The notes below the pieces were generated by a model that saw only the letters and a program-made list of their open reading frames with translations, did no database searches and was not told the origin of the DNA. The position numbers and the translations under genes were made by a program. A stretch of DNA of 33,387 nt, from assembly GCA_031264015.1 (NCBI GenBank), contig JAISET010000169.1, positions 1-33,387 of the forward strand, in the 5' to 3' direction. The DNA comes from Deltaproteobacteria bacterium (GTDB taxonomy: Bacteria; Desulfobacterota; Desulfarculia; Adiutricales; Adiutricaceae). This document shows positions 13,166 through 32,922 of this stretch, piece by piece. Numbering within the stretch: position 1 is the first letter of the stretch; each line of letters opens with the position of its first letter.

Positions 13166-13205
13166 CGTCCTCTCGACCCGACGCCCGGGGGCGAGGCCGA
13201 CATAA

Positions 13206-13547
13206 TGGGAGAACTAACCCGGGGGAGCCAGGCCCCCGTGATTGGGCGAACTACCCTTGGGAGAACCAAGCCCGCCTAAAGGGGGAACCGACGCGGAAGA
13301 ACGCCCGGGGGAGAACAAGTTTGACTGAGGGGAGAACCGACCTGGGTTCTCCCTGCAGGCCCGGCAATGAGAAAGGCGAAATCCGGGCGCGCAAGGCTCG
13401 AAATTGGGATCATTATACTCCGATGAAGACAAAAAGAACAGTTTGTTAAACGAAAGAACAGTTTTTCAGGTGATTTTCCCAACGATTTTCAAGCCGCCGA
13501 TCAAGTTCTCCCTAGAATGGAGAACCACGACTTCTGGGGAGAAACAT
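13206..13547. repeat. array of about 10 copies of a GGGAGAAC motif, in inverted orientation relative to the left array, with one palindromic pair GTTCTCCCTAGAATGGAGAAC. Right flank of the IS1634-like gene.
   Basis: Copies gggagaactaaccc, gggcgaactaccc, gggagaaccaagcc, ggggagaacaag, ggggagaaccgacc, gggttctccctgcagg, gttctccctagaatggagaacc and ggggagaaacattt, read directly. Confidence 0.8.
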
Positions 13548-13955
13548 TTCCACCCATCCAGATCGTGGCTGAAAGCAAAGACTTTTTAGCTATTATCATA
13601 ACAAAAATTCAAAAATGCATAATTTTACTTCGCAATTATGCCGATCCTGACCAGCCGGTTTTTGGCGCCGGGAGCAATCTGACCCGGGGCATAAAAAAAA
13701 GGGAGAAAAAGTTCTCCTTTTAAAAAATTCCACCCATAAATTTCCACCCACAATTTCTCCCCGTCTTTCGTCGGCGTCTTCGTCGGGAGATAAATAGAAA
13801 TAATTGTGGCGATTTACCATATAGCTATATCCTGGATGCAATTATCTCGTATATAAAACTCCGTCAAAATTACCTTGAAAAAGCCCCGCGGCCGCAGGTC
13901 TGCCACCGGCCGGCCGCGGGTCTGCCGTCGGCCGGCCCGTCTAAATCACCGACCC

Positions 13956-16211: not shown

Positions 16212-16919
16212 TCAGAACCCGCCCCTCTGGCTGTCGCCGGCCTCCCTGCGCCTGACCTGGGCCAGGGAGAGCATCTCGTCGAGGAGGGTCTCGGCGTCGG
16301 CGGCGGAGTCGCCCCCGGCGGAGGAAAACATCCGCTCCAGCTGGGCGGCCTTCCGGACCAGGACGCCGTCCGAGGAGGCGCTGGCCTTGCGGTCGAAGAA
16401 GCGCACCTCCTCGCAGAGTTTCTTGAGCTTTTCGGTCTGCCCCGGGCTCAGTTTGGCCAGCTTGAGGACGCTGTCGAGCCGGCCCAGCAGCTCGATCGGG
16501 GCGGCGATCTTGGCCGCGGTCGCCGCGTCGACGGCCGAGACGCCCCTGGAGGAAACGTAGAAGACGATCTCCAGGCTGACCAGGAGGGCGAAGGCCACCA
16601 GCTCCCAGGGGACCAGCCAGTTGAGGCTGACGGCCAGCCCGGCGGCGTGGACCACGGCCATGGGCAAAGCCAGCAGCAAATACAACCCCAGGACCACGTA
16701 GGAGCCCATGCGGAACAGGGGGCCGGTGCCCGGGGGGGCCAGGTCCTGGACGGCCAGGCCGACGACGACCGCGGTCTCGGAGAGAAGCAGGAAGACCAGG
16801 CCCAGCCATTGGACGTTGGTGCGCTCCCCGGTCAGGATCAGGAAGATGGCCAGGGAGACCAGGATCCAGACGGCGCCGATGACGAGGACGACCTTGAGGC
16901 GCGGGCTGACTTTTTCCAT
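16212..16919 (-). CDS. integral membrane protein (4 predicted TM helices plus a cytoplasmic helical C-terminus), function unknown. Middle gene of the operon.
   Basis: Hydrophobic segments VVLVIGAVWILVSLAIFLIL, WLGLVFLLLSETAVVVGLAV, VVLGLYLLLALPMAVVHAAGLAV and LVAFALLVSLEIVFYV. The region is GC-rich and GC3-skewed. It lies 93 bp after the gene in front of it on the minus strand. Confidence 0.6.
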   Translation of the reverse strand: MEKVSPRLKVVLVIGAVWILVSLAIFLILTGERTNVQWLGLVFLLLSETAVVVGLAVQDLAPPGTGPLFRMGSYVVLGLYLLLALPMAVVHAAGLAVSLNWLVPWELVAFALLVSLEIVFYVSSRGVSAVDAATAAKIAAPIELLGRLDSVLKLAKLSPGQTEKLKKLCEEVRFFDRKASASSDGVLVRKAAQLERMFSSAGGDSAADAETLLDEMLSLAQVRRREAGDSQRGGF

Positions 16920-17027: not shown

Positions 17028-18326
17028 TCAGAGCCTGGTCCCGCAGGAGGGGCAGAACTGGGAGGCCCCCGGCTGCTCCAGCCCGCAGGAGGGGCATTTC
17101 TTGGTCAGGGCGCCGCCGCAGGAGGGGCAGAACTTGGAGCCCGGGGGGACCTTCTGGCCGCACAGGGGGCAGGGCTGGGGCAGTTTCGCCCCGCATTTGG
17201 GGCAGACGGCCGTCCCCTGGGGCAGGTCCTCCCCGCAGCTCGGGCAGGGGTTGTAGGGGTCGCCGCAGTTGGGGCAGAACTGGGAGGTCTTGGCGAACAT
17301 CGTCCCGCACTTGTCGCACTTGACCGTGTCGGGGGCCTGCTGCCGGCCTCCTCCCGCCTGGGGGAGCGGCTTGCCGCAGTCCGGGCAGAAGCGCCTGCCC
17401 TCGGGGACCATGGCCTGGCAGCCGGGGCAGCGGACGGAGCCCGCCGCGGAGAGGTTCTGGGCCATCCCCCCGAACTGGGCGCCCATGGGCCCGCCCAGGC
17501 CCAGGCCCATGCCCAGGCCGAGGCCGGCCCCCATCACGCCCGCCTGGCCGGAGCCGGGGTTGGTGGCGGCCCCCTCCAGGGTGTCGAAGGTGCGCTCCTG
17601 CTGGTAGTTGTAGCCGATGATGTCCATCTCGGCCTTCTTGGCCAGGGCGGCCTTGAGCTGGACCACGGCCGGGTCGTTCTCGGGGACGCTGACGTCGTTG
17701 ATGTAAAAGTTGACCAGCTCGATGCCGTACTCCGCCATGACGGGCTTGACCCGGTCCTTGACGTGGTCGGCCAGCTCCTCGAGATAGGCGTTGATCTCCA
17801 GGACGCCGATTTTCTTGTGGACCAGGTAGCCGGCCAGGGAGTCCTTGACCTTGTTCAGATACAGGCCCTTGAAATAGCGGGTCAGGGTCTCCTGGTCGAA
17901 GACGGGGACCGTCCCCACGAGTTTGATCAGGAATTTCGACGAGTTGTCGATTCTGATCCCGAACTGCCCGAAGGTGCGCACCGGGACCATGATGCCGAAC
18001 TTGGGGTCCTGCAGCTGGATGGGCGACGGGGTCCCCCACTTGATGTCCAGGGAGTTGGTCTTGTTGACGAACCAGACCTCGGCGGCGAAGGGCGACCTGC
18101 CCCCGAAGGGCAGCTTGAAGAGGGCCGAGAGCAGCGGGATGTTGGCCGTCTCCAGGGTGTGCCTGCCGGGCCCGAGGACGTCCAGGGCCTGGCCGCCCTT
18201 GAAGAAGACGGCCTCCTGGGACTCGTTGACGACGAGCTGGCTCCAGGTGGCCAGCTCCTCGTTGGGAAACTTCCAGGCGAAGACGCTGTTGGGGCCGCTG
18301 TATTTGACTACGTCGATTATGGCCAT
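17028..18326 (-). CDS. SPFH/Band-7-like protein of the YdjI type with a Gly/Met-rich linker and five tandem C-terminal zinc-ribbon (CxxC-x9-12-CxxC) modules. First gene of the operon.
   Basis: N-terminus MAIIDVVKYSGPNSVFAWKFPNEELATWSQLVVNESQEAVFFKGGQALDVLGPGRHTLETANIPLL closely resembles B. subtilis YdjI-type SPFH proteins. GGAGAG RBS 3 nt upstream of the ATG at 18326. C-terminal CPGCQ..CPDCG, CDKCG..CPNCG, CPSCG..CPKCG, CPLCG..CPSCG and CPSCG..CPSCG. Confidence 0.8.
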   Translation of the reverse strand: MAIIDVVKYSGPNSVFAWKFPNEELATWSQLVVNESQEAVFFKGGQALDVLGPGRHTLETANIPLLSALFKLPFGGRSPFAAEVWFVNKTNSLDIKWGTPSPIQLQDPKFGIMVPVRTFGQFGIRIDNSSKFLIKLVGTVPVFDQETLTRYFKGLYLNKVKDSLAGYLVHKKIGVLEINAYLEELADHVKDRVKPVMAEYGIELVNFYINDVSVPENDPAVVQLKAALAKKAEMDIIGYNYQQERTFDTLEGAATNPGSGQAGVMGAGLGLGMGLGLGGPMGAQFGGMAQNLSAAGSVRCPGCQAMVPEGRRFCPDCGKPLPQAGGGRQQAPDTVKCDKCGTMFAKTSQFCPNCGDPYNPCPSCGEDLPQGTAVCPKCGAKLPQPCPLCGQKVPPGSKFCPSCGGALTKKCPSCGLEQPGASQFCPSCGTRL

Positions 18327-19106
18327 GAGATGACTCTCCGGTGCCTGAGCCGCGGGACGAAAAAAAAGAACATGACCGCCGGGCGGCCGGCGCCCGCGGG
18401 CGGCTGGCTGGTGCAACGGGCGGGCGGCTGGGGCAGTGTCAGGCGTATTCTAGCCCCGGCCCGGGTTTTATTCAAGATCCGGCGGCCTCCCCCCCCGGGA
18501 CGAAAGGGTCGGAAAGCGCCAAAAAACGGCGGGCCGCGGGTCAGGCCCGGGCGCCGGCCGGCGGGAGCCCCCCCGGCGGCGCGTCGGCCGGGGCGGCGTT
18601 TCGGGAGACGCCCGGGGAGATGAAGGCGTCGTCGGCCATATTTGAAGAGACTAAACGCGGCGACGGGGAAAGAACAAGCCGTCCTTTCGACGACAGGAAA
18701 GACGCGTCTGTCGCCGCGACATGCGGCGCGCCGTCAATTTCCGTCCGGGCGACGCCCTCCCGGCCCTCCGGACCTGAGGGCGCCGGCTTCCGGTCGGGCC
18801 CGACGCGGTCGAATTCGCCTATGTCCGCGCGGGCCGCGGCGAGCGCCGCCTTTTCTTCCTGGTCGAAGCCTGCGGCCGTCGCCGGCGGGGCCGTGACGGA
18901 CATGACGGCCGGAACAAACATCGGCGACGCCGCCGGCCTCGCGAGTCCGGGGCGGGCTGGGCGCCGGCCGGCCGCGACGACATGGTCGGGGTCTTTCCGA
19001 CTAATATTCCGGCGGGTTGTTGGCGGCGCTCCGACAGTTGGACGGACGAACCGAAGCAAGATTTCAAAAAGACGCTCCCCCCGGCGTCGCGCGACGCCGC
19101 CGCGCC

Positions 19107-20810
19107 CTAGGCCGAGCGCGAGGGGGGCGGGCCGGCGAGACGGGCGACCAGGCCGGGCGCGCTTTGGGCGGTCACCCGGATGACCTTGCCGGCGCGGCCG
19201 TACTCGTGGAACTGACTGAAGCTCTCCGCCGAGGTGACGCGGACGTCCGGACGGCCGCCCATCAGATCCAAAAGGTCCTGTTTGGCCTGGTCCAGGTTGT
19301 AGGAGGGGTTGATTTTTCTGCTCTCGCCCAGGGTGGGGGCGCTCATCAGGCCGTGGTCGGTGTCGGCGTAGAGCTCGGCCTCGACGGTGGGCCTGGCCAG
19401 GGCGGCGCCCAGGGCGTTGGCGGTGGCGGCGCCGGCCGGGGCCGAGCAGGCCAGCCCCAGGGCCTCCCCGGCCAGGGGCGCCAGGGTCTCGGCGGGCCCG
19501 CCCAGAAAGACGGCCCTGTTCGGCTCCAGACGCCAGTCGACCAGAAAGTCGCCCACGGTGTAGACGGGCTGCTGGTTGATTCTCTCCAGAAAAAGTTTGA
19601 TCTCGTCAGCGAGCTTTTCCAGGACCGCCCCCACGCCCTGCCGGGCCAGGCCGACGGGGTCCCCGGGGGCGAGGAGCTCGAAGGCCCTGAGGCTGACCCG
19701 CGGGTCCCCCACGGCGCAGCGGCCCAGGGCGTTCAGGGCGTCGGTCAGCGTCGGAGGGCGCAGGCCCAGGTCGCCGGGGGCCAGGGCCAGGGCGGGGCCG
19801 CGGCGGACCGGCGCGGGGACGAGCCTGCCGTCGACCGGGGCCAGGTCGGTGTCGCCGCCCAGGGCGGCGGAGTGGGTCAGGAGCCCCTTGACCAGGGTGG
19901 GGCGCCCGGCGATGGTCAGGCCCTCGGAGGTCATCAGCGGCGACCCGCGGCTGAAGACGGCCAGGTCGGTGGAGGTGCCGCCCATGTCCACCATCAGGAC
20001 GTCCCCCGGATCGGGGGCCTCGGACGGGCCGGAGGCGTCGGAGAGGGCCCAGAGCCCCAGAAGGCTGGCCGCGGGCCCCGAGGTCAGGGCCAGAACCGGC
20101 CTGGCCCGGGCCGCCGCGAGGCCCATGACCCCGCCGTCGGACTTCAAAACGCAGACGGGGCAGCCCAGGCCCCTGGCCGCGGCCACCTCGCCAAGATCGT
20201 CCAGGAACCTGTCGTAGAGGCGCTTGACGGCGGCGTTCAGGACGGCGCCGCCCAGCCGCCTGGGGAAGTTCAGGCCGCCGAAGAGGGCGGAGGCGGACAT
20301 GACCGGGCCCGGGCAGACCTCCCGGCCCGCGGTCCGCATGACCTCCTCGAGGACGGTGTTCTTGGGCCCGAACTTGCTGCCCACCACCAGGGTGGCGGCG
20401 CCGCGCCCGACCAGGTCCGCGGCCGCCTCGCGGGCCAGCCGCGGGTCCAGGGCCTCGACGACGTGGCCGCGGTGGTCCTGCTGGGCCGGGAGCGCCCGGT
20501 AAAGGGGCCCCCAGGGCCCGGGGTCCAGCTCCAGCCCGGGCCCGCCGGTGGTCATGACGCCCACGGGGTCGGCCGCGCCGGTCAGAAGGCTGTTGAGGCC
20601 CAGGGTGGTGGAGACCGTCAGCCGCTTGAGGGAGGCCGCCCGGCCGCCGGTCAGAAGCTCGTCGAAGACCCGGGCGAGGCTCTCGATGACGCGCACCGAG
20701 GTCCTGGCCTTGGCCGCGTCCACTGGGCGGACCCCGGACTTGGTCTCCTCCAGCAGGACCGCGTCCGTGTGGGTGCCCCCGACATCAACGCCTAAAAACA
20801 CCTTGAACAC
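19107..20810 (-). CDS. hydantoinase/oxoprolinase-family protein (Hydant_A_N-type ATPase fold), GTG start
   Basis: FLGVDVGGTHTDAVLL N-terminal phosphate-binding motif, a second DMGGTSTDLAVF motif, 567 aa. Confidence 0.65.
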   Translation of the reverse strand: MFKVFLGVDVGGTHTDAVLLEETKSGVRPVDAAKARTSVRVIESLARVFDELLTGGRAASLKRLTVSTTLGLNSLLTGAADPVGVMTTGGPGLELDPGPWGPLYRALPAQQDHRGHVVEALDPRLAREAAADLVGRGAATLVVGSKFGPKNTVLEEVMRTAGREVCPGPVMSASALFGGLNFPRRLGGAVLNAAVKRLYDRFLDDLGEVAAARGLGCPVCVLKSDGGVMGLAAARARPVLALTSGPAASLLGLWALSDASGPSEAPDPGDVLMVDMGGTSTDLAVFSRGSPLMTSEGLTIAGRPTLVKGLLTHSAALGGDTDLAPVDGRLVPAPVRRGPALALAPGDLGLRPPTLTDALNALGRCAVGDPRVSLRAFELLAPGDPVGLARQGVGAVLEKLADEIKLFLERINQQPVYTVGDFLVDWRLEPNRAVFLGGPAETLAPLAGEALGLACSAPAGAATANALGAALARPTVEAELYADTDHGLMSAPTLGESRKINPSYNLDQAKQDLLDLMGGRPDVRVTSAESFSQFHEYGRAGKVIRVTAQSAPGLVARLAGPPPSRSA

Positions 20811-23588: not shown

Positions 23589-24379
23589 TAATTCTTCCTT
23601 GGCTATTCCGATAAAGTTAATTGACAGGCCGCCCCCCCCGCGAGGAGCCGCCCCGCCGACGCCTTGCGGGCCGGCCGATCCCGGGGGCGTCCGGCCGGAT
23701 GGCGGGCGCTCATGGTCAGCTGCGTATTATAGAGGATTGTCAGCCCAGCGTAAAGCAAATTTTTTCTATTTCCCCGGTACTTGCCCTAAAAGACCCCCAA
23801 ATCCTCTAAACTTACGCCCGGAACCGGCCCCCCCGCCCCGACATCCCCGCGACCGGACACCGGACCCAGCGGCGCGTCCCCCCCCCCAGCGGCCGGCCTC
23901 CCGGACCCTTGGTCGCAAGATGACCGGGGGGCCGCCCGAGACGAGGTGGGGGACGACCCGGACCTCCGGCCCGAAGACCCGGAGGATGATTTGCTCCGTC
24001 AGCGCCTCCTCCGGGCGGCCCCTGGCCGGGATCCCGCCCTTTTCAAGCAGGTGGAAAAGTCGCGGTGTTTGGCGGCCAGACTTACCCATAGTTAAAGAAG
24101 CCGACAAGATTATATCAAAAAAATTTTAGTTAATTTAGAATCTTATGCTATAAGTTCCTATGGCGAAGGGACATTTTCAGCGACGCGTTCCACCCCTCTC
24201 CAGTCCGAAATCAGGGGGCGGCATGAGAAAACCCTCCTCTTCCGGGCGGCAACCGCTGGGATTATTTGGGGCCGTTTAAATGATTGTTTGAAGATCGATT
24301 GATAAAACTATCAAAAAAATGCCCAAAGGCAGGTTAAGACTGTTTAAAGGCTGATCAAAGACTATGTAAAGTTTTGCCG

Positions 24380-25690
24380 ACTGGTTGTTCGCAGCTTGCC
24401 GGCCTGTTCAAAAGTTTCTTACAGACTGTAAGTATTCCATCAGTCGCGGTTGCCGCCCTGTTCAAAAGTTTCTTACAAACTGAAAGTATTCCAACAGACG
24501 CGGTTGCTGGCCGGCTGTCCGACCTGGTGTCGATTCGGTTGTCCAACGACATGTTCAAAGGCCATAGAGTGAATGTTTAAAAGACCATTATAAGCTGTCA
24601 AAGGTGTGTCTAAGTGTTTTAATAACATGTTTAACCTGTTCAAAAGTCTGTGAAAAAGTCCTCCCCGGGGCCGGGCGAGGGACCGCCGGCTTTATTTTGA
24701 CGCGAACCGGCCGGACGGGCACAAGTATGTTCGACAGCCTGTCAGTCAGGTGTCAAGAAGACTGTCGGCGCGGGTGTTCAGAAAGTTGTCGAGAGTCTTG
24801 TCCAGGAATAAGTTCAAAGGGCCGCGCGGAGGTTTGTTCAGAGGGGTGTCCAAGACATCGGCGGCAGGCGTGCGGAGCATGTTCATAAGTTGTTCGGGGT
24901 TGTTCGCAAACTGTTCACAAGGCTGTCAAGGCCTGTGTCGAAAGGGGTTGTTCAGACGGATGTCGCAAATATGGGATTAGAAAATCATTAAAATTATTTT
25001 CAGAGGCGCGTCAATGAGATGTTCGAAAGGTGTTCAGAGCCGGTTTATCAGGTGGTCGCGTCTGTTCGGAAGCTGTCGATTCAGCTGATGGCAGCCTGTT
25101 CATTTGCCTGTTTAAAAACGTCATTCTTCCATTCCGCTCGACTTCCCCCATCCCTGGAAGCGGTCATGTGATTGTCAGAGGCCGCTCGCAAAGCCGCCCT
25201 CTCTGGAACTCTTGAAATAGAACTTCACCAGCGGCAGTCTTTTCCAAGTTGTTCATAGAGTTGTTTAGTTTCTGTAATAACTATTGTTTAAGAGCTGTTT
25301 AATAATTGTTCAAATGATTTTGTCAACTGTTCAAAGGGTTGTCGAAAGATCGTCATTCTGGCGGGCAAAGGCCGAGCACCGTTCTTTCAAAGACGAACAG
25401 GTCTATCGGCCACAGTATGTTCGTCAGCTTGTCAATCTGCTGTCAAGACGAGTGTGGACTGGATTGTGCGGACTGATGCTGAGAATGTTGTTCATAGTGA
25501 TGTTAAAAGACTGTCTGGAGGAATGTTTAGCGTGGCGTCAACATCATGCGCGACAAACTGTTCAAACCCTGTTCATGGATGTTCACAGCCTGTTAAAATC
25601 TGTTTATTGGCTGTTCGGGGTTGTTCATAAACTGTTCAAAAGTCGGCAAGGTCCGGACTATTGTTCCGGCATCAGTTATTTGAAATGCTG
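24380..25690 (+). repeat. array A: about 1.3 kb of degenerate, single-orientation 10-12-bp repeats with core CTGTTCA(A/N)A. It includes a 54-56-bp tandem duplication at 24401-24510.
   Basis: Dozens of TGTTCA/TGTCRA cores about 11 bp apart, e.g. gcatgttcataagttgttcggggttgttcgcaaactgttcacaaggctgtcaaggcctgtgtcgaaaggggttgttcagacgg. Almost no reverse-orientation (TGAACA) copies. The plus-strand ORFs here arise because the motif lacks stop codons. Confidence 0.8.
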
Positions 25691-26046
25691 AAAATCCCTA
25701 AATAGTCAGTATAATGTGATGTTACTTCTTATATGTTCTCTTATTTTCCTAAACTTTAAATCTTCTTGTTTAAAAAAACGATAAACACATTTCTGTCTCT
25801 TTTGAAGGGATCTTAGAATAGAATGCGCTCTAGCATCAAGAGTTTCCTTATTTCTTATATGGGCCTGTGAATAAATTAGACATTGTATATAGTTATTTAT
25901 ATATTCTACATGGTTAATTTCTGGACTATAAGAAGGAAAATAATGCAGTTCAATAAACTAAAGACTGAAGGGCGTAGCCAGATCCTGGCAGGGGCGCCGA
26001 CTTTTTACGGTTTCGTCATCCATGCCGTTCCTGTTCCGCACCCGCT

Positions 26047-26715
26047 TCATGAAATTCTCCGCCAAATCTGCGGTTCGTAAGGACGCGGGGTGAATCCCTG
26101 GCATGCGGCATCGAACATATAGGCGGCCAGTCTCTGGAGGACAGCAACAGTTCTGTCCCATATGCACCATTTTGGCGCAAGGCTTTCACAGGATCCAAGT
26201 GTAATGTCCGCAAAATCATAGGGAAAAGGGCTGCCAATCTGCTTCAACATCTGTTGCAACACGGACATCTCATTTGAAAGCGGATAAATCTTGTCAAGAT
26301 CCTTCAATGCTTCGGCAGACTTTAAAGCTCCTATTCTTGAAGAAAAAATTGCCAGATCCACGTAATCCATCGTAGCGTTCCGCAAAAGGATGAGCGCGGA
26401 CTTGATTATGAGGATTTCGCGGTTGGTCGGAACGAAAACCTGCCTGCCGTCCTGCTCTACGGCTACGGTCTCGAGCGGAACGGTCCTTTTGAGTTCTTTG
26501 ATGCAAGTTTCGATGTTTCTAAAATTCACCACGTTGCGCATCGGGGAAATGAACAAGGACGGCTTGCAACCGATTATCGCATCGAACTTACTCATAATTA
26601 GGTCGCGGTCAGGATGAGCGCCCAGCGAGGCGGCAACATGAACGCCGTCTCCGATAACAGACTGTGACCTGCAAATTGCGCTCAGTACCGAGTCCCATTC
26701 AGGTATTTCTTTCAT
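26047..26715 (-). CDS. hypothetical protein (222 aa) in the low-GC island, immediately downstream of the nucleotidyltransferase-like gene
   Basis: Open frame with ATG at 26715, 4 nt after the upstream stop. Low GC. No recognisable motif. Confidence 0.4.
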   Translation of the reverse strand: MKEIPEWDSVLSAICRSQSVIGDGVHVAASLGAHPDRDLIMSKFDAIIGCKPSLFISPMRNVVNFRNIETCIKELKRTVPLETVAVEQDGRQVFVPTNREILIIKSALILLRNATMDYVDLAIFSSRIGALKSAEALKDLDKIYPLSNEMSVLQQMLKQIGSPFPYDFADITLGSCESLAPKWCIWDRTVAVLQRLAAYMFDAACQGFTPRPYEPQIWRRIS

Positions 26716-26719
26716 TGCT

Positions 26720-27211
26720 TTATCTGCTGATGAATTGTAATTTTCTGAACATGACTCCGAAAATCCAGTTGGGAACGTCATATTTTAAAGTCTCGGGCCA
26801 CACAAGGTTTCGATTGACGATGGCCACGCATTTACTTTTTATCATTTCTGGCGCCGTTACCGTAATAAATTTCATCCCGCGATGCTTAAAAGTAACTGTA
26901 TCCAAAGAAACCGATCTAGTCATTTGCTTGACGCTAGTTTTTACGCCAAGAAGCTGTCCAAGAATAGCTGAAGGAGAGGCTACGTAATTAGTTTTCCAAT
27001 CGCTGTTTGATTACAGTATATTCTGGATTTCATCGAAATTATGTTCCAACACCCGCATCGAATAATCTGCATCGTGAGACATGCGATGGCCCGCGTGAAG
27101 GATAACAGCGCATCCCCCTCCTAGTACGGCGCCAGGCACAAGCTCATGGAACCTGCAGGCCGCAGTCAGCATTTCGTCCCAGGTGGGTAGCGGTTTAGAA
27201 ATTCTGGACAT
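26720..27211 (-). pseudogene. AbiEii/AbiGii-type nucleotidyltransferase-family (toxin-like) gene interrupted by a single in-frame TAA at 27011-27013
   Basis: The N-terminal fragment (27011-27211) carries GAVLGGGCAVILHAGHRMSHDADYSM, matching the G-G-T-A-L-x-L-x-x-G-H-R-x-S-x-D-x-D motif of this family. The same frame reopens directly after the TAA and continues ...SNSDWKTNYVASPSAILGQLLGVKTSVKQMTRSVSLDTVTFKHRGMKFITVTAPEMIKSKCVAIVNRNLVWPETLKYDV. Confidence 0.5.
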
Positions 27212-27425
27212 AGCTCAACCAGAAGCGGTAGCGCTGACTAAAATAGATATCATTGTAGCTTTCTTTGCATATATGTTTAACACCGTCCTTGACTTTCTTA
27301 TCTCTGTGAACGGCTTCTCGCAGTTCTGCCCAGTCAACAAACTCTCCGTGGGAAATAATCTCGTCTATCGCTGACAGGCAGAATTCGGTTTCGGGAGTAA
27401 GATCAAGATTTCTGTGAATCATCAT
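27195..27425 (-). CDS. small protein (76 aa) overlapping the start of the nucleotidyltransferase-like gene by 17 nt. Possible cognate antitoxin/regulator.
   Basis: The TA-like overlap geometry supports pairing. There is no recognisable HTH motif, so the call is weak. Confidence 0.3.
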   Translation of the reverse strand: MMIHRNLDLTPETEFCLSAIDEIISHGEFVDWAELREAVHRDKKVKDGVKHICKESYNDIYFSQRYRFWLSYVQNF

Positions 27426-28357
27426 AACATGCCCGGGCGCGTCCTCCTTCTATGAATATAGACAAAACTATGAAACAAGCTCCAGACTTAAAACGTTCGA
27501 AGATTTCGAGCATGGTGCCCGAAAAAATCACTAAAAATATATCCGGTTTTTCATCGTAACGCAAGTGCTTGAAACGATTAAGCCATGCCGGAGAGACTTC
27601 TGAAACTTCATATCGGTGCCCCTTCCAGGAACTGGCTGCGTCCTTCAGACTTTAATCTGAGGAAGGCTTCGAACGAGGCTAGTGATACAAGATGTTCCAG
27701 CATGGTTGTTTGACACCCCAGTTTTTGTCGGCTATGATTCCACCCAGTTCTTCAGCGTTGACCTCTCGTTGACTTTTTACGGTTTCGTCCTGTGGGCCCG
27801 GCATCGGCAAACCGGGGTGACTGGACGAGGGTCCTGATGCGCCTCTGGAAGCAGTGGAAGAGGGCGAGGACCAGGTCCAGAAACCTGCAAACGCTAGGAA
27901 TCCACAGGATACAGGCGTGGACGTGGGCCAACACCCGTATGAGGTGCTGGTGCGCGGCATACAGCAGAGATTGGAGGGGCCCTGGAAAAAAGGGACGGCA
28001 AACTGACGGTGGTCAGTTGGCTGGCGGTCATTCTGAAAGCTAAAGTGCAAGTGGCTAATTTGGAACTCTACTTGTCAAACAAATGTTAAAATTGACATAT
28101 TTACCACTTTTAGCTTATAACATATTGAAAGTTTTAATATTTCATTTATAATTGCATATTAATGGCCGTTAGATTATGTTGACGACCATTTATATTAGTT
28201 TTTTAATCTGATTAAAGATTGCAAAAATATTTTTTCACTATTAGTTAATTTTCGAACGCTAAAATCATTTATTAAATTTCTAAATTTGCAAAATAATATA
28301 TTAAACTATGATTAGATATAAATATAAATATACATGGACAAACTGTCTTGTCAAAAA

Positions 28358-28458
28358 TTTATAGATTTTCAACGAATTCACTACTTTTGACAAGGATTTT
28401 TGGCAAGTTTTAGACAAATTGTCCTGGCAGTTTTAGGACAAAATGACTTGGTGTTAAC
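28358..28458 (+). repeat. about 100-bp element (copy 1) made of three tandem 23-bp iteron-like units (ttttgacaaggatttttggcaag / ttttagacaaattgtcctggcag / ttttaggacaaaatgacttggtg), preceded by about 280 bp of extremely AT-rich DNA
   Basis: About 94% identical to copy 2 at 32698-32798. Internal 23-bp periodicity read directly. Confidence 0.85.
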
Positions 28459-29750
28459 AGGATTCTCAAAGAAAAGTGTGCCAAAAACTTTACCAATTCT
28501 CATTGAAAAGCGTGCCATGATAAAAAATGACATGTCTTATGCTCATAAATATGCGCCGCTATGGCGCGCTAAAGTTGGAAGTCTGATGTTGAGAAAGTGT
28601 TCAGGGAGCAGTTTGGAGGATTGTTCAGAGGGGTGTGCAAGGCATCAGCGGCTGTTGTTCAGAGATTGTCCGGCGCCTGTTCAGAGCCTGTTCATAAACT
28701 GTTCAAAAGTCGTCACAGTCACGACATAGTCGGGCGCTTAAGATTTTATCCTGACGACCTGCCGACAGTTTTACAAATTGTTGAAAAGGTTGTCGAAAAG
28801 TTGTCCAGGCGTGTGTTCGGCGGCAGTTCATGTATGTTCAAAGGCTGTCAGACAGAATCTCTGATTGTTCAAAAGTGTTCAGAGCGAGTGTTGAAACCGA
28901 TGTTCGCATGACGTTCAAGGCGTTCATAACATGTTCGGAAAGTTGTGCAAACGGCTGTCGAATGATTGTGCGGCGGCCGTTCACAAATAACTTCCACTCA
29001 GGAAAGCCTGGCAGAATAATCATTGAAGCCGACTCGGGCCAACCCTTTTCCCCTCCCCTTTTTTTCATCCCCCATCCCTCCGTTCCCCTTTCCCCTTTCC
29101 CCTTTAACTCTTCAACTCAAACCCCTGCTTGATCATTGTCAGACAACCAGGCGCCAGCTTCATGAAAAACGACTGTCCAAAGCCCTGTCCAAAGCCATGT
29201 AGATGGAGTTGTTCAAAAATACTCGCCTGCCTGTTTATAAGCTGTCTGTTCGATTGATTGGACGCGGTTCATCAGGCTGTTCAAACCAACCGTCTTCCCC
29301 GCCCCGCGCTTCTTCCTTGGACCCTGTTCAAAAGCTGTTCAAAACTTACTCAATTCTAGAAATAGCGCCGCTTCACAGCTTCGTTTTTTCAGGACGTTCA
29401 TGGAATTGACAAATAAAAATATCCCAAAATTGTTCGTTAATCTGTAATAAGAAAGATGCCATGACAAAAACTATTAATTTTTCGCCTATATTTGTTGTTC
29501 TGGAATTATTTTTAAACGGCCGTCCATGGCGCGTCCATCCCGTCTATTTAATTCTATTCTATAAATGCTCGGAAGCAGTCGCGACAGTCCGGTCCGGCCT
29601 TAATAACGAGCTTAACCCCGTTCTGATGACGCCGTCCATGGACATTTGGCCAAAAACCACTGTTCACCCCCCGTTGGAAGCCGGTGAAAGTTAGTTTGGC
29701 TGTTCAAAGTCTGTCGCAAGTTGTGTTTGACAGGCTGTTCAAAGATTGAA
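28458..29750 (+). repeat. array B: second CTGTTCA-type 10-12-bp periodic array, about 1.3 kb, same orientation as array A
   Basis: e.g. gtgttcagggagcagtttggaggattgttcagaggggtgtgcaaggcatcagcggctgttgttcagagattgtccggcgcctgttcagagcctgttcataaactgttcaaaagtcg; ctgttcaaaagctgttcaaaac; ggctgttcaaagtctgtcgcaagttgtgtttgacaggctgttcaaag. Confidence 0.8.
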
Positions 29751-29879
29751 AACACCCAAAAAGTCTACAAAGCACCCGACTATGTCGGCAAACGTTCCCG
29801 CCGCCGCGTCCGCCGCGGAGGTTCACAGGGTGTCGGTCGCAACGACGGGCGGAACAAGGCGGGTATGATCGCCGACGCG

Positions 29880-29985
29880 GATAATGTATGTCGCGGGGAG
29901 GATAAGGACTTGTCAGGACTGATAAGGAATGAAGACAAGGACTGATGAGCGCTGAGGATTAAGTTCTGAGGATAAGGACCGCGGC
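29880..29985. repeat. about 5 tandem degenerate copies of GGATAAGGAC-like units (about 13-bp period) downstream of the pspF-like gene
   Basis: gaggataaggacttg / tgataaggaatg / agacaaggactg / gaggattaagttct / gaggataaggaccg. Confidence 0.6.
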
Positions 29986-30033
29986 GACGCTTTTTCGACG
30001 GCCGGCCGGTGTCGCGGCCGGCAGTGTTTGCGA

Positions 30034-31221
30034 CTAGCCGAGCTTGCGCCGCAGCGAACGGAAGCGGTGGTAGGTCATGCCCAGGAGCTCCGCCGCCCTG
30101 GCTTGGTTGCGCCGCGCCTCCTCCATGGCCCGCTCGATTATTTCCAGGCTCCTGCGGCGGATGATGAGGTCGAACTCGCCCGGGGCCAGGGGCAGGCTGA
30201 TTTCCTCGTCGTCCGGCTTCGGATATTGCCCCGGCTTCGCCCCCGTCCGATCTCGGCGAAACTCTTGTTCCCGAGAAAATTCCCGATCCCGGGAACGCTC
30301 CCCCTCCCCTGAAAACTCCCTTTCCGAAAGATGATCCCGCTCCCGCCCCGCGTCGTCGCCCTCCTGCCGCGGCCCGTCCGGATAAAGCTCCTCGTCAAAC
30401 TCCAGCAGTTCCGGGCCGATCATTATCTGCCCGGAGACGGACCCTTTCTCGTCTTGGCCGTCCCCGCCGCCGTCCTCGTCCGAGTCGCCCCGCGCCCGGT
30501 AGACGGCCCTCTCGACGACGTTCTTGAGCTCGCGGACGTTGCCGGGCCAGAAGTAGGTGTCGAGCTTGCGGAGGGCCTCGGGGGTGAAGACGGGCATGAG
30601 CTCCTGGCCGAGCTCCCGGGCCATGCGGGCGCCGAAGAAATGGGCCAGGTAGGTGACGTCCCCCGGCCGGTCGCGAAGAGGCGGCAGGGTGACGACCTCG
30701 AAACTGAGGCGGTCCCAGAGGTCGGGCAGAAAGGCGCCGGTCCGGCACATCTTTTTCAAGTCGGCGTTGGTGGCGGCGACCACCCGGACGTCCACCGTCA
30801 TCTCGCCGGAGCCGCCGACCAGCTGGAAGGAGCCGTACTCCACCACCCGCAAAATCCTGGCCTGGGCGCCGGCCCCGAGGTGGCTGATCTCGTCCAGAAA
30901 CAACGTCCCGCCGTCGGCGGCCTCGAAGCGGCCGGGCCTTCTGCCGCGCGCCCCGGTGAAGGCCCCGGCCTCGTGGCCGAAAAGCTCGGCGTCTATCAGG
31001 CCAGGCGAGAGGGCGGCGCAGTTGAGGGCGACGTAGGGCCCCTGCCAGCGCCGGGAGAGAAAATGCAGCCTGGCCGCGGCCAGCTCCTTGCCCGTCCCCC
31101 TCTCCCCGAGGAGCAAAACCGGCCGGTCGACTTTGGCCGCCCGGGAGAGCCGCTCCTTGACAGCCAGGATGCTCTCCGAGGCGCCCAGCAGATCCGGGAC
31201 GATGGAGGAGGGCCCGCTCAT
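30034..31221 (-). CDS. pspF: PspF-type sigma-54-dependent transcriptional activator: AAA+ enhancer-binding domain with no N-terminal regulatory domain, and a C-terminal HTH after an acidic/Arg-Glu-rich insert
   Basis: Almost colinear with E. coli PspF: LLGASESILAVKERLSRAA, PVLLLGERGTGKELAAARLHFLSRRWQGPYVALNCAAL, ELFGHEAGAFTGA (GAFTGA motif), GRFEAADGGTLFLDEI, VRVVAATNADL, TYFWPGNVRELKNVVERAVYRA, and a C-terminal AAELLGMTYHRFRSLRRK HTH. The start ATG at 31221 overlaps the stop of the upstream gene (ATGA). Confidence 0.85.
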   Translation of the reverse strand: MSGPSSIVPDLLGASESILAVKERLSRAAKVDRPVLLLGERGTGKELAAARLHFLSRRWQGPYVALNCAALSPGLIDAELFGHEAGAFTGARGRRPGRFEAADGGTLFLDEISHLGAGAQARILRVVEYGSFQLVGGSGEMTVDVRVVAATNADLKKMCRTGAFLPDLWDRLSFEVVTLPPLRDRPGDVTYLAHFFGARMARELGQELMPVFTPEALRKLDTYFWPGNVRELKNVVERAVYRARGDSDEDGGGDGQDEKGSVSGQIMIGPELLEFDEELYPDGPRQEGDDAGRERDHLSEREFSGEGERSRDREFSREQEFRRDRTGAKPGQYPKPDDEEISLPLAPGEFDLIIRRRSLEIIERAMEEARRNQARAAELLGMTYHRFRSLRRKLG

Positions 31222-32327
31222 ACGAGGCGGCTGGTCCCGCTGGCGGCGGCGGCGGCCGAGACGGCCTCGGCCATGGCGGAGACCAGGTCGGACTTGTCCA
31301 GGCCCGGGACGATGAGCTCGGGGGACAACTCCGCCTCGGGCACCAGCCGCGACAGGGCCATGGCGGCGGCCATCTTCATGGGGGCGTTGATGGACCTGGC
31401 CCGGGAGTCCAAAGCCCCCCTGATGAGCCCGGGGAAGACCAGGCTGCCGGTCAGGCGCCCGGGCCTCTCGTAGCCCGTGTCGGCCAGCACCGCCGCCTGC
31501 TCGAAGTCGGCGCCCTTTTGGTCGGTCAGGTTCAAAACCACGGCGCCCTCGGCCATGGGGGCGACCACCTCGCGCCCGGGCGGGCCCGCCTGGGAGACCA
31601 GGATCAGGACGTCCGCCCCGGCCAGCGACTTGGTCAGGCTGCCCTTGACCTGCCTGGGGTTGGTCTTCAGGGCCAGCTCCTCCTTGATCCAGTTGGTCAC
31701 CCCCGGCCTGCCCCGGTGGATGGCCCCGGTGCGGTCGCAGACGACGATGTCGGCCGCCCCGGCCAGCCGGAAGAAGTCGACCACGGGCAGCCCCTCGGCC
31801 TCGGTCCCGGCGATGACCAGCCTGATCTCGGCCATCTTCTTGCCCACCACCTTGAGGGCGTTCAAGACCGCCGCCAGGCAGAGGACGGGCAGGCCGTCCT
31901 GGGTGTCGTGGAAAACGGGCAGCTCGCCCAGCTCCTGGACGCGCCGCTTGATCTCCAGGGAGGTCGCCTCGCTCATGGCCTCGAGGCTGACGGCCCCGAA
32001 GGAGGGGGCCAGGGCGCTGACCGTCCTGACCACGTCGTCGGCCGTCCTGGCGTCGACGACCAGCGGGAAGGCGGCGATGTCGGCCAGGCGGCCCATCAGG
32101 CGGGCCTTGCCCTCCACCAGCGGCAGGGAGGCCAGCGGCCCGACGTCCCCCAGGCCGGGGACGCTCGAGCCGTCGGTCAAAACGGCCACGCTGTTGTACT
32201 TGTCGGTGAGCCTGTGGGCCTGCCCGGGGTCGGCGGCCAGCGCCCTGCACGAGTCCAGCGCCCTCGAGAAATAGTCCCGGTCCTCGTCCGGGTTCCTGTC
32301 GGGTTTCTTGACGGTTTGTGGGACCAT
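31218..32327 (-). CDS. maeA: NAD(P)-dependent malic enzyme, short (about 370-aa) type
   Basis: AVLTDGSSVPGLGDVGPLASLPLVEGKA, FGAVSLEAMS, PVFHDTQDGLPVLCLAAVLNALKVVGKK, ADIVVCDRTGAIHRGR, ALKTNPRQVKGSL and FPGLIRGALDSRA match the conserved blocks of short malic enzymes. Confidence 0.8.
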   Translation of the reverse strand: MVPQTVKKPDRNPDEDRDYFSRALDSCRALAADPGQAHRLTDKYNSVAVLTDGSSVPGLGDVGPLASLPLVEGKARLMGRLADIAAFPLVVDARTADDVVRTVSALAPSFGAVSLEAMSEATSLEIKRRVQELGELPVFHDTQDGLPVLCLAAVLNALKVVGKKMAEIRLVIAGTEAEGLPVVDFFRLAGAADIVVCDRTGAIHRGRPGVTNWIKEELALKTNPRQVKGSLTKSLAGADVLILVSQAGPPGREVVAPMAEGAVVLNLTDQKGADFEQAAVLADTGYERPGRLTGSLVFPGLIRGALDSRARSINAPMKMAAAMALSRLVPEAELSPELIVPGLDKSDLVSAMAEAVSAAAAASGTSRLV

Positions 32328-32642
32328 TTTTTTCCTCGTCGGCGGCGGGGCCGGGGCCCGGCGTCCGGGCGCCTCGGAAAGACAGTTCCGGCGCGGCGGG
32401 CGTCATGCCCCGGTTTGATTTTCAAAACGTCCTGGCGAAAGGCGTCGGCGTCAAATTTACAATCTGTTCGATTTGTTCCTGGCTTGCTCCGAGAAAAAAA
32501 TCTGTCTGAAAACCCGTGGGTTCGGGGGGCGCGGGGAGAGGCTTAAAACCGCCCCCCCTCCCGAAACTCCGCCGGTCAAAATTCCCGGCCCGGCAGTTGT
32601 CCTGCCAGCCGCTGCTTGTCTAATCTGATCTATCCTATTCTG

Positions 32643-32697
32643 GCAAGCGTTCACGGGGTCCCTGGTGACCCCTGCCAGGGACCCCGTGAACGCTTGC
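32643..32697. repeat. perfect 23-bp-arm inverted repeat (gcaagcgttcacggggtccctgg / 9-nt loop / ccagggaccccgtgaacgcttgc) abutting copy 2 of the 100-bp element
   Basis: Read directly from the sequence. No convincing T-run follows. Confidence 0.85.
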
Positions 32698-32798
32698 TTA
32701 TAGATTTTCAACGAATTCAGTATTTTTGACAAGGATTGTTGGCAAGTTTAAGACAAATTGTCCTGGCAGTTTTAGGACAAAATAACTTGGTGTTAACA
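32698..32798 (+). repeat. about 100-bp iteron-like element, copy 2 (direct repeat of 28358-28458)
   Basis: About 6 mismatches over 100 bp relative to copy 1. Confidence 0.85.
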
Positions 32799-32922
32799 CT
32801 GGGGGGAACTGAATGGTTACAAAATATCAGCCTCTTTTTCGATACCAGCGACAGTACCATCAAGAAAAAACGTTGGGGCCATCCACTGTTTTTCGCCGAA
32901 TTATGGCGGATTCGCCTAACCC

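What the first reader, a model, noticed from the sequence alone, without database searches (positions are those of the whole stretch)
30034..32327. PspF-type sigma-54 activator translationally coupled (ATGA overlap) to a malic enzyme gene, with no recognisable pspA or sigma-54 promoter in the window
The activator consists of a bare AAA+ enhancer-binding domain plus an HTH, as in PspF and HrpR/S. Such proteins are normally regulated by a PspA-like negative partner, and they sit divergent from their sigma-54 target promoter. Here the gene is co-transcribed with a metabolic gene (malic enzyme). It carries an unusual 90-aa acidic/Arg-Glu-rich insert (DSDEDGGGDGQDEK...REFSGEGERSRDREFSREQEF) before the HTH. 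A YdjI-type SPFH operon, which in Bacillus is part of the pspA operon, lies about 12 kb away. By eye I could not find any TGGCAC-N5-TTGC element (the candidate at 1664 has the wrong spacing). The target promoter and the partner protein are unknown.
Basis: partly seen in the sequence, partly recalled or inferred. Interest (0 to 1): 0.6.

Follow-up and report, generated by a model that had tools for sequence, protein, structure and literature searches.

The report
PspF-type activator behind dead malic enzyme
A genuine PspF-type sigma-54 activator gene overlaps the end of a gene that looks like malic enzyme but has lost its catalytic machinery; the pair is the tail of a regulatory gene cluster conserved in termite-gut relatives of Candidatus Adiutrix, and its target promoter and partner protein are still not found.

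Summary
A 369-aa malic-enzyme-like gene (32327..31218, - strand) overlaps by ATGA a 395-aa sigma-54 activator (31221..30034) that has only an AAA+ domain, a long acidic linker and an HTH. No pspA and no convincing sigma-54 promoter lie in the window.

The interpretation needs three corrections.
1. The "malic enzyme" is a pseudoenzyme. It keeps the fold, but 2 of 3 metal ligands, the GxGxxG loop and the substrate Asn residues are replaced in all 26 clade members, against about 100% conservation in 95 canonical enzymes. It is under strong purifying selection (dN/dS about 0.1). One MAG that carries it also holds a canonical malic enzyme on another contig.
2. The pair is not free-standing. In more than 20 related loci it follows an NtrC-type response-regulator activator. 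The ancestral core is that regulator followed by pspF. The malic-enzyme gene is a later insertion, and five loci keep the pseudoenzyme without pspF.
3. The "insert" is a hypervariable linker. The SPFH operon shows no link.

The activator is PspF-like (300 bits to E. coli PspF) and keeps the PspA-docking YLW patch. The likeliest reading is a relocated pspF still controlled by a PspA encoded elsewhere. A sensor role for the pseudoenzyme remains a minority hypothesis.

The parts
31218..32327 (-). Malic-enzyme-derived pseudoenzyme gene (369 aa). It keeps the small-malic-enzyme fold and the catalytic Tyr19 and Lys74. It has lost the metal ligands equivalent to D256 (now A117) and D279 (now T142). 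The GxGxxG loop reads AGTEAEG, ANP reads TDQ and NN reads TG. The N-terminal ~25 aa of canonical enzymes are absent.
   Evidence: 26 clade members against 95 canonical enzymes. AF2 model pLDDT 84, pTM 0.83. Foldseek TM 0.85 to 5CEE. dN/dS 0.08-0.13.
31218..31221 (-). ATGA overlap. The ATG of the activator shares TG(A) with the stop of the pseudoenzyme gene, which implies translational coupling.
   Evidence: An NTGA overlap is conserved in 12 of 13 related loci.
30034..31221 (-). PspF-type sigma-54 activator gene (395 aa plus stop), with no N-terminal regulatory domain.
30487..31188 (-). AAA+ sigma-54-interaction domain plus lid (aa 12-245). Features: Walker A GERGTGKE (31107..31084), YLW-type patch F54/L55/W59 (W59 at 31047..31045), GAFTGA (30966..30949), Walker B LFLDE.
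   Evidence: The YLW patch is the PspA docking site according to PMC3791423.
30157..30486 (-). Acidic and Arg/Glu/Gly-rich low-complexity linker (aa 246-355). It is hypervariable among relatives, and part of it is built from short repeats (REFS.../RDREFS).
   Evidence: alignment A3; composition; repeat family D4, copy 30263-30288.
30040..30144 (-). C-terminal Fis-type HTH (aa 360-394). It is preceded by the lineage-specific motif PLAPGEFD.
   Evidence: HTH_8, 22.9 bits against cut-off 22..
32704..32732 (-). Sigma-70-like promoter match (TTGTCA-17-GAAAAT) inside a 101-nt repeat. It is the most plausible promoter of the two-gene operon in this contig. This is a consensus match only.
32698..32798 (.). 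101-nt repeat, with a second copy at 28359-28459 (95% identical). It contains the inverted repeat TTGTCCT-N9-AGGACAA.
32647..32693 (.). Perfect hairpin with a 20-bp stem between the repeat and the operon. Its role is unknown; it may be a 5'-UTR stem-loop.
32592..32608 (-). Sigma-54-like element CTGGCAGGACAACTGCC, about 265 nt upstream of the pseudoenzyme ATG. It is probably a chance match. It occurs only in this species (also in L089) and not upstream of the orthologous gene in 12 other loci.

Best explanation
The locus is the distal part of a lineage-specific regulatory cluster found in Adiutrix-related termite-gut Desulfobacterota. The cluster order is YchF, (DUF2461), a REC-AAA+-HTH response-regulator activator, a malic-enzyme-derived pseudoenzyme, then a PspF orthologue.

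Shown:
- The second gene encodes a complete sigma-54 activator without a regulatory domain, and it keeps PspF's PspA-docking YLW patch.
- The first gene encodes a protein with the malic-enzyme fold that cannot bind the catalytic metal or NAD(P) in the canonical way. It is nevertheless strongly conserved.
- The two genes are translationally coupled.
- The cluster core (regulator followed by pspF) is older than the malic-enzyme insertion.

Inferred:
- The activator is made from a sigma-70-type operon together with the pseudoenzyme.
- It is held inactive in trans by a PspA/IM30 protein encoded elsewhere in the genome, which docks on F54/L55/W59.
- On envelope stress it is released, binds an enhancer through its HTH, and uses ATP hydrolysis and GAFTGA to open a sigma-54 promoter. 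That promoter is most likely psp-type and lies outside this 33-kb contig.
- The pseudoenzyme has a conserved non-catalytic or re-tooled function of its own. It is not an obligatory partner of the activator.
For: PspF identity:
- TIGR02974 scores 404.8 bits and is the best of 26 families.
- E. coli PspF structures score 300 bits, against 219 for NifA.
- Walker A and B, GAFTGA and the RLH[YF]LSxRW motif are invariant in 18 sequences, including a PspF that sits divergent to pspABC (P0204, locus L087).
- Y51, L52 and W56 form the PspA docking patch (PMC3791423).

No N-terminal domain.

Pseudoenzyme:
- The D256 equivalent is A or G in 25 of 26 clade members, against D in 95 of 95 canonical enzymes.
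- The D279 equivalent is T, N, A or S, against D in 94 of 95.
- The central Gly of GxGxxG is Glu in 23 of 26, against G in 95 of 95.
- ANP and NN are lost.
- The fold is retained.
- dN/dS is 0.08-0.13.
- A canonical malic enzyme lies on another contig of the same MAG, Nc350_bin113 (L069).

Independence of the two genes:
- The pseudoenzyme occurs without pspF in L006/L014, L017, L018 and L019 (and probably L024). dN/dS is still 0.077 between L006 and L017.
- pspF occurs without any malic-enzyme gene in Smac51 (L004), L090/L091 and Ca. Adiutrix (L093).

No pspA within about 10 kb in any of these loci.
Against: - No PspA/IM30 gene and no psp-type promoter of this lineage was found. The only database search possible returned PspA proteins of other lineages, so control by PspA and the identity of the target are unproven.
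- The protein falls below the NCBIfam equivalog cut-off (404.8 against 443.55).
- The NTGA coupling is kept in 12 of 13 loci at only 50-67% protein identity. This looks more constrained than mere neighbourhood and hints at co-function with the pseudoenzyme.
- PspF proteins that follow the pseudoenzyme share a clade-specific Leu-to-Trp change (DLWDRL, W169) in an otherwise invariant motif. This could mark a new interface, although it is confounded with phylogeny.
Confidence: 0.55

Rival explanations
1. The malic-enzyme-derived pseudoenzyme is a trans-acting sensor or anti-activator of the PspF-type activator, and perhaps also of the upstream response-regulator activator. It would be made stoichiometrically through the ATGA coupling. 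It would bind the AAA+ ring and release it, or activate it, when a metabolite such as a C4-dicarboxylate occupies the remnant active site. It would replace or supplement PspA.
For: - The NTGA overlap is conserved in 12 of 13 loci.
- Catalysis is lost, yet dN/dS is about 0.1 and a long clade-specific invariant segment is present (RGRPGxTNWxKEELAxKTNPRQxKG).
- A canonical malic enzyme is kept elsewhere in one MAG that carries the pseudoenzyme.
- No pspA lies nearby.
- W169 is specific to PspF proteins that follow the pseudoenzyme.
Against: - Five loci keep an intact, strongly constrained pseudoenzyme with pspF cleanly deleted.
- pspF exists without any malic-enzyme gene in three sister lineages.
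- In L005 a catalytically intact malic enzyme is nearly as tightly joined to pspF (TGATG, one shared base), so close coupling predates the loss of activity.
- The PspA-docking patch is retained.
- No interaction data exist.
Confidence: 0.18
2. The PspF-type protein works as a co-dependent partner of the upstream REC-containing activator, in a mixed hexamer as in HrpR/HrpS. Phosphorylation of the receiver domain, not PspA, would then control it.
For: The regulator followed by pspF, in tandem and in the same orientation, is the one invariant of the cluster in every lineage where pspF is present. The gaps are 9-21 nt in L091 and L093. Both proteins have intact GAFTGA and Walker motifs.
Against: - The two AAA+ domains are only about 43% identical.
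- Both proteins carry their own HTH, and the regulator carries two.
- IS and other insertions of 1-1.9 kb separate the genes in several lineages.
- pspF is lost in five loci while the regulator stays.
- The upstream regulator is not visible in this window.
Confidence: 0.12
3. The pseudoenzyme is a non-catalytic subunit that pairs with the canonical malic enzyme and stabilises or regulates it, as the beta1 subunit of plant C4 NAD-malic enzyme does. Its linkage to pspF would be operon hitch-hiking with no regulatory meaning.
For: - There is precedent: NAD-ME beta1 lost its catalytic activity and acts by stabilising the alpha subunit (bioRxiv 10.1101/2021.06.16.448762).
- A canonical malic enzyme co-exists in one MAG that carries the pseudoenzyme.
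- The fold is retained.
- The pseudoenzyme persists without pspF.
Against: The N-terminal ~25 residues of small malic enzymes are missing. The gene always sits among regulator genes and not with the canonical enzyme.
Confidence: 0.12
4. One reading: an active malic enzyme is co-transcribed with PspF, and the SPFH/YdjI operon 12 kb away is the Psp-like target.
For: Pfam malic and Malic_M matches pass their gathering scores. An SPFH plus zinc-ribbon gene is present at 17028..18416.
Against: Catalytic residues are lost. No PspA homologue lies in or next to the SPFH operon. No GG-N10-GC element scoring 0.68 or more lies in its upstream region 18416-19107.
Confidence: 0.03

Closest known systems
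PspF of Escherichia coli and Yersinia (sigma-54 activator lacking a regulatory domain; NCBIfam TIGR02974)
   Same: AAA+ domain plus C-terminal Fis-type HTH, with no N-terminal domain. GAFTGA, Walker motifs and the YLW (W56-loop) PspA-docking patch are conserved. It scores 300 bits to the E. coli PspF structures.
   Different: - It is not divergent from pspABC, and no pspA lies within about 10 kb in more than 20 related loci.
- The gene sits at the end of an operon behind another activator gene and a pseudoenzyme gene.
- The linker is about 110 aa.
- The score is below the equivalog cut-off.
Canonical deltaproteobacterial pspF divergent from pspABC (L087; DVU2989 with DVU2988-2986 in D. vulgaris, PMC4641369)
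   Same: 67% identity over the AAA+ domain to P0204 of L087. The HTH core is the same (AAxLLG[LM]TYHxFR).
   Different: L087 has a sigma-54 promoter (TTGGCCCGGTTGTTGCC) 39 nt upstream of pspA. No equivalent exists here.
HrpR/HrpS with HrpV (Pseudomonas syringae)
   Same: Adjacent, co-oriented activator genes. One partner lacks a regulatory domain. Control in trans by a separate protein (PMC4145663, listed).
   Different: Here the upstream partner has a receiver domain and two HTHs, and the two proteins are not close paralogues. Nothing is known about hetero-oligomers.
Small prokaryotic malic enzymes (PDB 5CEE, 2A9F, 1VL6/2HAE; the malic-enzyme domain of MaeB)
   Same: The fold and overall architecture (TM 0.80-0.85). 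The catalytic Tyr and Lys and the equivalents of E255 and D278.
   Different: It lacks 2 of 3 metal ligands, the GxGxxG loop, ANP, NN and the N-terminal ~25 aa. It forms a monophyletic long-branch clade.
Non-catalytic beta1 subunit of plant C4 NAD-malic enzyme
   Same: A malic-enzyme paralogue that lost catalysis and is retained for a structural or regulatory role.
   Different: It is eukaryotic and pairs with an alpha subunit. There is no link to transcription factors.

Membership tests
PspF (domain-less sigma-54 activator, TIGR02974) | Sigma-54-interaction AAA+ domain with Walker A and B and GAFTGA | tested here: met
   PF00158 at 186.8 bits. GERGTGKE, GAFTGA and LFLDE are invariant in alignment A3.
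PspF (domain-less sigma-54 activator, TIGR02974) | No N-terminal regulatory domain | tested here: met
   The AAA+ domain starts at aa 12. The upstream frame is non-coding by codon-position GC. All homologues start at the same point.
PspF (domain-less sigma-54 activator, TIGR02974) | C-terminal Fis-type HTH | tested here: met
   HTH_8 at aa 360-394, 22.9 bits against cut-off 22. The motif AAELLGMTYHRFR aligns with canonical PspF proteins.
PspF (domain-less sigma-54 activator, TIGR02974) | W56-loop YLW patch, the PspA docking site | tested here: met
   F54, L55 and W59 align with Y51, L52 and W56 of E. coli PspF. The Trp is invariant in 18 sequences. The role of the patch is taken from PMC3791423.
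PspF (domain-less sigma-54 activator, TIGR02974) | Score above the curated equivalog cut-off | tested here: not met
   404.8 bits against a cut-off of 443.55 for TIGR02974, and 355.7 against 529 for NF008622. The long linker costs score.
PspF (domain-less sigma-54 activator, TIGR02974) | Adjacent (usually divergent) pspA operon with a sigma-54 promoter | tested here: not met
   No PspA, PspB or PspC in the window or in 24 related loci. All three are present in the control locus L087.
PspF (domain-less sigma-54 activator, TIGR02974) | Inhibited by PspA; activates the psp promoter | not testable with these tools
   This needs the rest of the genome and experiments. The PspA search returned no protein attributable to this lineage.
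Malic enzyme (EC 1.1.1.38-40) | Malic-enzyme fold (N-terminal domain plus Rossmann domain) | tested here: met
   phmmer E = 2e-59 to 5CEE over aa 19-366. AF2 pLDDT 84. Foldseek TM 0.85.
Malic enzyme (EC 1.1.1.38-40) | Three acidic metal ligands (equivalents of E255, D256 and D279 of human ME2; numbering from my own knowledge of the ME2 literature) | tested here: not met
   Only the Glu is kept. D256 is replaced by A or G in 25 of 26 clade members and D279 by T, N, A, S, V or R. Canonical enzymes have D in 95 of 95 and 94 of 95.
Malic enzyme (EC 1.1.1.38-40) | GxGxxG dinucleotide-binding loop | tested here: not met
   The loop reads AGTEAEG. The central Gly is Glu in 23 of 26 clade members, against Gly in 95 of 95 canonical enzymes.
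Malic enzyme (EC 1.1.1.38-40) | Substrate-binding Asn residues (the ANP and NN motifs) | tested here: not met
   ANP is replaced by TDQ and NN by TG or other residues. Canonical enzymes have N in 94 of 95 at each position.
Malic enzyme (EC 1.1.1.38-40) | Catalytic Tyr and Lys | tested here: met
   Y19 and K74 are retained (Y in 20 of 21 aligned clade members, K in 25 of 25).
HrpR/HrpS-type tandem activators | Two adjacent co-transcribed paralogous activators, both without a regulatory domain | tested here: not met
   The tandem is present in relatives. However, the upstream protein has a receiver domain with D52 and K102, and the AAA+ domains are about 43% identical. The upstream gene is not in this window.
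Bacillus ydjFGHI-type PspA-SPFH operon | A PspA/IM30 gene in the same operon as the SPFH gene | tested here: not met
   The SPFH plus zinc-ribbon gene lies at 17028..18416. Its neighbours have no PspA match. No sigma-54-like element lies upstream.

The most novel reading that the evidence does not exclude
A malic-enzyme fold that has lost catalysis has been recruited as a new kind of trans-acting partner for sigma-54 activators. It would couple a metabolic signal, through ligand binding in the remnant active site, to the ATPase ring of a PspF-type protein that lacks its own regulatory domain, and possibly to the neighbouring response-regulator activator. This would be a metabolite-sensing analogue of PspA, HrpV or NifL.
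Probability: 0.15. Interest if true: 0.8.

Novelty: new variant of a known kind. Interest (0 to 1): 0.45.

Why it matters
Activators that lack a regulatory domain must be controlled in trans, and only a few partner types are known (PspA, HrpV/HrpG). This lineage moved pspF away from pspA into a cluster with a second activator. In one sub-lineage it acquired a tightly coupled, strongly conserved enzyme-derived pseudoenzyme.

If the pseudoenzyme touches either activator, it would be a new class of activator regulator and a clear bacterial example of an enzyme turning into a signalling protein. If it does not, the result still has practical value. About 25 database entries from termite-gut MAGs that are annotated as "NAD-dependent malic enzyme" or "malate dehydrogenase (oxaloacetate-decarboxylating)" are very probably not malic enzymes, and metabolic reconstructions of these acetogen-related symbionts should not count them.

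Tried and rejected
1. Sigma-54 promoter search in the window. I ran a consensus scan with mismatches and a weighted scan. Counts are at or below chance.
   - The element upstream of the operon (32608..32592) is not conserved in 12 orthologous upstream regions, so I rejected it as a promoter.
   - 365-381(+) has no + strand gene for about 1.7 kb.
   - 6461-6475(+) is the only 1-mismatch core. It lies about 415 nt upstream of a TolC-like gene and was left as an untested lead.
2. No conserved sigma-54 element lies upstream of the response-regulator gene in 20 loci.
3. A candidate enhancer motif taken from the canonical L087 intergenic region (GCTAAAAYAGCC) gave 2 hits against 4 expected. Rejected.
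4. A PspA search with the L087 protein returned only other lineages, so it is uninformative for this clade.
5. P0028, one of the 44%-identical 391-aa malic enzymes, sits in an unrelated context resembling Firmicutes. Canonical hits at that level therefore say nothing about synteny.
6. Rfam and tRNA scans of the window found nothing.
7. A literature search for a link between malic enzyme and sigma-54 activators found none.
8. I considered a longer activator ORF (the 790-aa frame) with a hidden N-terminal domain. It was rejected on codon-position GC and on the start positions of homologues.
9. I did not attempt a complex prediction. The structure tool takes single chains and returns no interface metrics.
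Full report
**What is there**

The window is a 33,387-bp contig of a termite-gut "Deltaproteobacteria" MAG. The activator protein is 100% identical to P0121, whose cluster's longest contig is 33,387 nt. On the - strand, an ORF at 32327..31218 (369 aa, ATG preceded by GAGGA) ends in a TGA that overlaps the ATG of an ORF at 31221..30034 (395 aa)...CTCGTATGAGCGGG.

Pfam finds Sigma54_activat (aa 12-174), AAA_lid_14 (183-245) and HTH_8 (360-394) in the second protein. In the first it finds only partial malic N and Malic_M matches (43.5 and 34.4 bits).

The activator frame stays open up to 32406, but that stretch is the malic-enzyme frame read out of phase. Its GC1/2/3 is 0.96/0.69/0.50, against 0.71/0.47/0.88 after the ATG. 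Seventeen aligned homologues start at the same place.

**The activator is PspF-like**

- Its best NCBIfam match is TIGR02974 (pspF) at 404.8 bits. This is below the 443.55 equivalog cut-off, but NifA, the next family after the two pspF models, scores only 275.
- Against solved structures, E. coli PspF scores 300 bits and NifA, the next distinct protein, 219.
- Walker A (GERGTGKE), GAFTGA and Walker B are intact.
- The segment RLHFLSRRW aligns with E. coli RLHYLSSRW. Y51, L52 and W56 there form the "YLW patch" on which PspA docks (PMC3791423). The Trp is invariant in all 18 aligned sequences. These include P0204, whose gene lies divergent to pspA-pspB-pspC in locus L087.

**The "90-aa insert"**

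It is the linker between the AAA+ lid and the HTH (aa 246-355; 33 acidic, 15 basic and 15 Gly residues in 110). In close relatives this linker differs freely in length and sequence, and the proteins range from 334 to 395 aa. I read it as a hypervariable, partly repeat-built, probably disordered tether and not as a domain.

**The "malic enzyme" is a pseudoenzyme**

The protein aligns end to end with small prokaryotic malic enzymes (5CEE, E = 2e-59). An AlphaFold model (pLDDT 84, pTM 0.83) superposes on them with TM 0.80-0.85.

I aligned 26 members of its clade against 95 canonical enzymes. The human-ME2 numbering and residue roles used below are from my own knowledge of the ME2 literature.

| Feature | Pseudoenzyme clade | Canonical enzymes |
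|---|---|---|
| Metal ligand, D256 equivalent | Ala or Gly | Asp in 95 of 95 |
| Metal ligand, D279 equivalent | Thr, Asn, Ala or Ser | Asp in 94 of 95 |
| Central Gly of GxGxxG | Glu in 23 of 26 | Gly in 95 of 95 |
| ANP motif | TDQ-like | Asn in 94 of 95 |
| NN pair | variable | Asn in 94 of 95 at each position |
| First ~25 residues | missing | present |
| Catalytic Tyr and Lys, E255 and D278 equivalents | retained | retained |

Other points:
- The clade is monophyletic on a long branch.
- It is under strong purifying selection, with dN/dS of 0.085-0.13 for close pairs.
- One MAG that carries it (Nc350_bin113) has a fully canonical malic enzyme on another contig (L069).

So this is a conserved paralogue that is non-catalytic or has acquired a different chemistry. 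It is not a working malic enzyme.

**Genomic context in relatives**

Gene neighbourhoods and tblastn searches over 24 loci show one cluster: YchF, (DUF2461), an NtrC/AtoC-type response-regulator activator of 575-611 aa, and then the genes discussed here. That upstream regulator has an intact receiver domain, GAFTGA and two tandem Fis-type HTHs.

Five architectures occur:
1. Regulator then pspF, separated by 9-21 nt (L090/L091, and L093 from Candidatus Adiutrix sp.).
2. Regulator, an XdhC-N-like small gene, then pspF (Smac51, L004).
3. Regulator, XdhC-N, a canonical malic enzyme, then pspF (L005).
4. Regulator, pseudoenzyme, then pspF (12 further loci; in the window itself the contig ends before any upstream regulator gene).
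5. Regulator then pseudoenzyme, with pspF cleanly deleted (L006/L014, L017, L018, L019 and probably L024).

Where both genes are present, the pspF start overlaps the stop of the preceding gene as NTGA in 12 of 13 loci.

In several lineages, 1-1.9 kb of IS-like or other DNA separates the regulator from the pseudoenzyme gene. In the window, a PD-(D/E)XK gene and the contig end occupy that position, so the upstream regulator cannot be seen here.

No PspA, PspB or PspC is encoded in the window or in the 24 related loci searched (413 kb in all). The control locus L087 has all three.

**Promoters**

TGGCAC-N5-TTGC with up to 2 mismatches gives 25 hits against 32.9 expected. A weighted scan that recovers the pspA promoter of L087 as a positive control gives 2 window hits at score 0.85 or more, against 1.8 expected.

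- The hit upstream of the operon (32608..32592) is absent from 12 orthologous upstream regions, so it is probably chance.
- Nothing lies upstream of the SPFH operon, even at a threshold of 0.68.
- No conserved element precedes the regulator gene in 20 loci.
- A sigma-70-like match (32732..32704) lies in a 101-nt repeat just upstream, followed by a perfect hairpin with a 20-bp stem. It is the most plausible operon promoter in this contig.

**Interpretation**

The descriptive part is secure: a PspF orthologue, translationally coupled to a malic-enzyme-derived pseudoenzyme, at the end of a conserved cluster of regulator genes.

For mechanism, I favour (0.55) a relocated pspF. Its product would still be held in check by a PspA/IM30 protein encoded elsewhere, docking on the retained YLW patch. 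It would activate a remote sigma-54 promoter.

On present evidence the pseudoenzyme is not an obligatory partner, for three reasons:
- It persists under equally strong constraint where pspF is deleted (dN/dS 0.077 between L006 and L017).
- pspF exists without it in three sister lineages.
- Close coupling to pspF already existed when the enzyme was still intact (L005, where stop and start share one base).

Against this stand three observations: the overlap is remarkably well conserved, pspA is absent locally, and a clade-specific Leu-to-Trp change (DLWDRL) occurs in exactly those PspF proteins that follow the pseudoenzyme (this is confounded with phylogeny). They keep alive the more novel reading that the pseudoenzyme is a metabolite-linked trans regulator of one or both activators (about 0.15-0.2).

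Two further rivals remain:
- An HrpR/HrpS-like mixed ring with the upstream response regulator.
- A plant-beta1-like non-catalytic subunit of the canonical malic enzyme (precedent: bioRxiv 10.1101/2021.06.16.448762).

**Verdict**

This is a new variant of a known kind, of moderate interest (0.45). The pseudoenzyme family and the tandem-activator cluster appear undescribed: a literature search for a link between malic enzyme and sigma-54 activators found none. However, no functional link is demonstrated, and the key unknowns (partner protein and target promoter) lie outside the contig.

Noticed in passing
window 1-2000, 10000-13900, 24000-30000, 32400-32900: Genes of 65-72% GC alternate with long islands of 37-50% GC that hold few ORFs. 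The islands at 24400-25660 and 28600-29360 carry arrays of TGTTCA-type motifs spaced about 10-11 nt apart (repeat families D3, D5, D7, D11, D12). These resemble iterons or clustered binding sites.
   Followed up: no
window 28359-28459 and 32698-32798: A 101-nt repeat, 95% identical between copies. It contains a sigma-70-like TTGTCA-17-GAAAAT match and the inverted repeat TTGTCCT-N9-AGGACAA. One copy sits directly upstream of the pseudoenzyme-pspF operon.
   Followed up: partly
window 32647-32693: A perfect hairpin with a 20-bp stem (GCGTTCACGGGGTCCCTGG...CCAGGGACCCCGTGAACGC) between the repeat and the operon. It has no U-tract on the operon strand.
   Followed up: no
window 6461-6475 (+): The only 1-mismatch sigma-54 core in the window (TGGCTCCCTGGTTGC). 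It lies in the intergenic region about 415 nt upstream of the TolC-like outer-membrane efflux gene (ATG near 6892), with a GC-rich imperfect palindrome at 6293-6348 upstream of it. Conservation was not tested.
   Followed up: partly
window 10354-10567: A tandem array of 5-6 copies of a 36-nt unit (CCCCCnnAAATTnCGTTCTCCCCAGCAGGnTAAnT) in an intergenic, lower-GC region.
   Followed up: no
window 13956-16106 (-), repeat at 14608-14799: A 716-aa protein with no Pfam match contains a coding repeat of 12-nt period, rich in Asp and Glu. It and a 235-aa protein with no Pfam match (16212..16919) follow the SPFH plus multi-zinc-ribbon gene 17028..18416.
   Followed up: no
L093 4326-4342 and L005 4159-4175: A sigma-54 promoter-like element is conserved about 105-110 nt upstream of pagL (lipid A deacylase family). 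It reads CTGGCACATATCTTGCC, a perfect core, in L093 and CTGGCCCAAGTTTTGCT in L005. It lies 2-4 kb upstream of the tandem activator genes, so pagL is a candidate target in those sister lineages. pagL is absent from the pseudoenzyme-clade loci.
   Followed up: partly
L001 5265-7037 and orthologues (alignment A4): The response-regulator activator upstream of the pseudoenzyme in all relatives carries two tandem Fis-type HTH segments (…ISPWRLRMRL… and …LGLSRRSFQHRIER…). This explains its 575-611 aa length.
   Followed up: no
L069 8741-11044: In MAG Nc350_bin113 the canonical malic-enzyme domain lies in one uninterrupted reading frame with an N-terminal part that resembles 3-hydroxyacyl-CoA dehydrogenase. 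This may be a fusion protein.
   Followed up: no
L001 7040-8895; L009 8653-10001; L010 200-1610: IS200/IS605-like ORFs (resembling TnpB and a Y1 transposase, judged by eye from the translations) and other AT-rich DNA are inserted between the regulator gene and the pseudoenzyme gene in several lineages. This intergenic site appears to be an insertion hotspot.
   Followed up: partly
L004 9660-10004; L005 8433-8759: A stand-alone 108-114-aa protein consisting of the XdhC/CoxI N-terminal domain sits between the regulator gene and pspF (or the malic-enzyme gene) in Smac51 and L005. In Smac51 it overlaps the pspF start in the same way.
   Followed up: no
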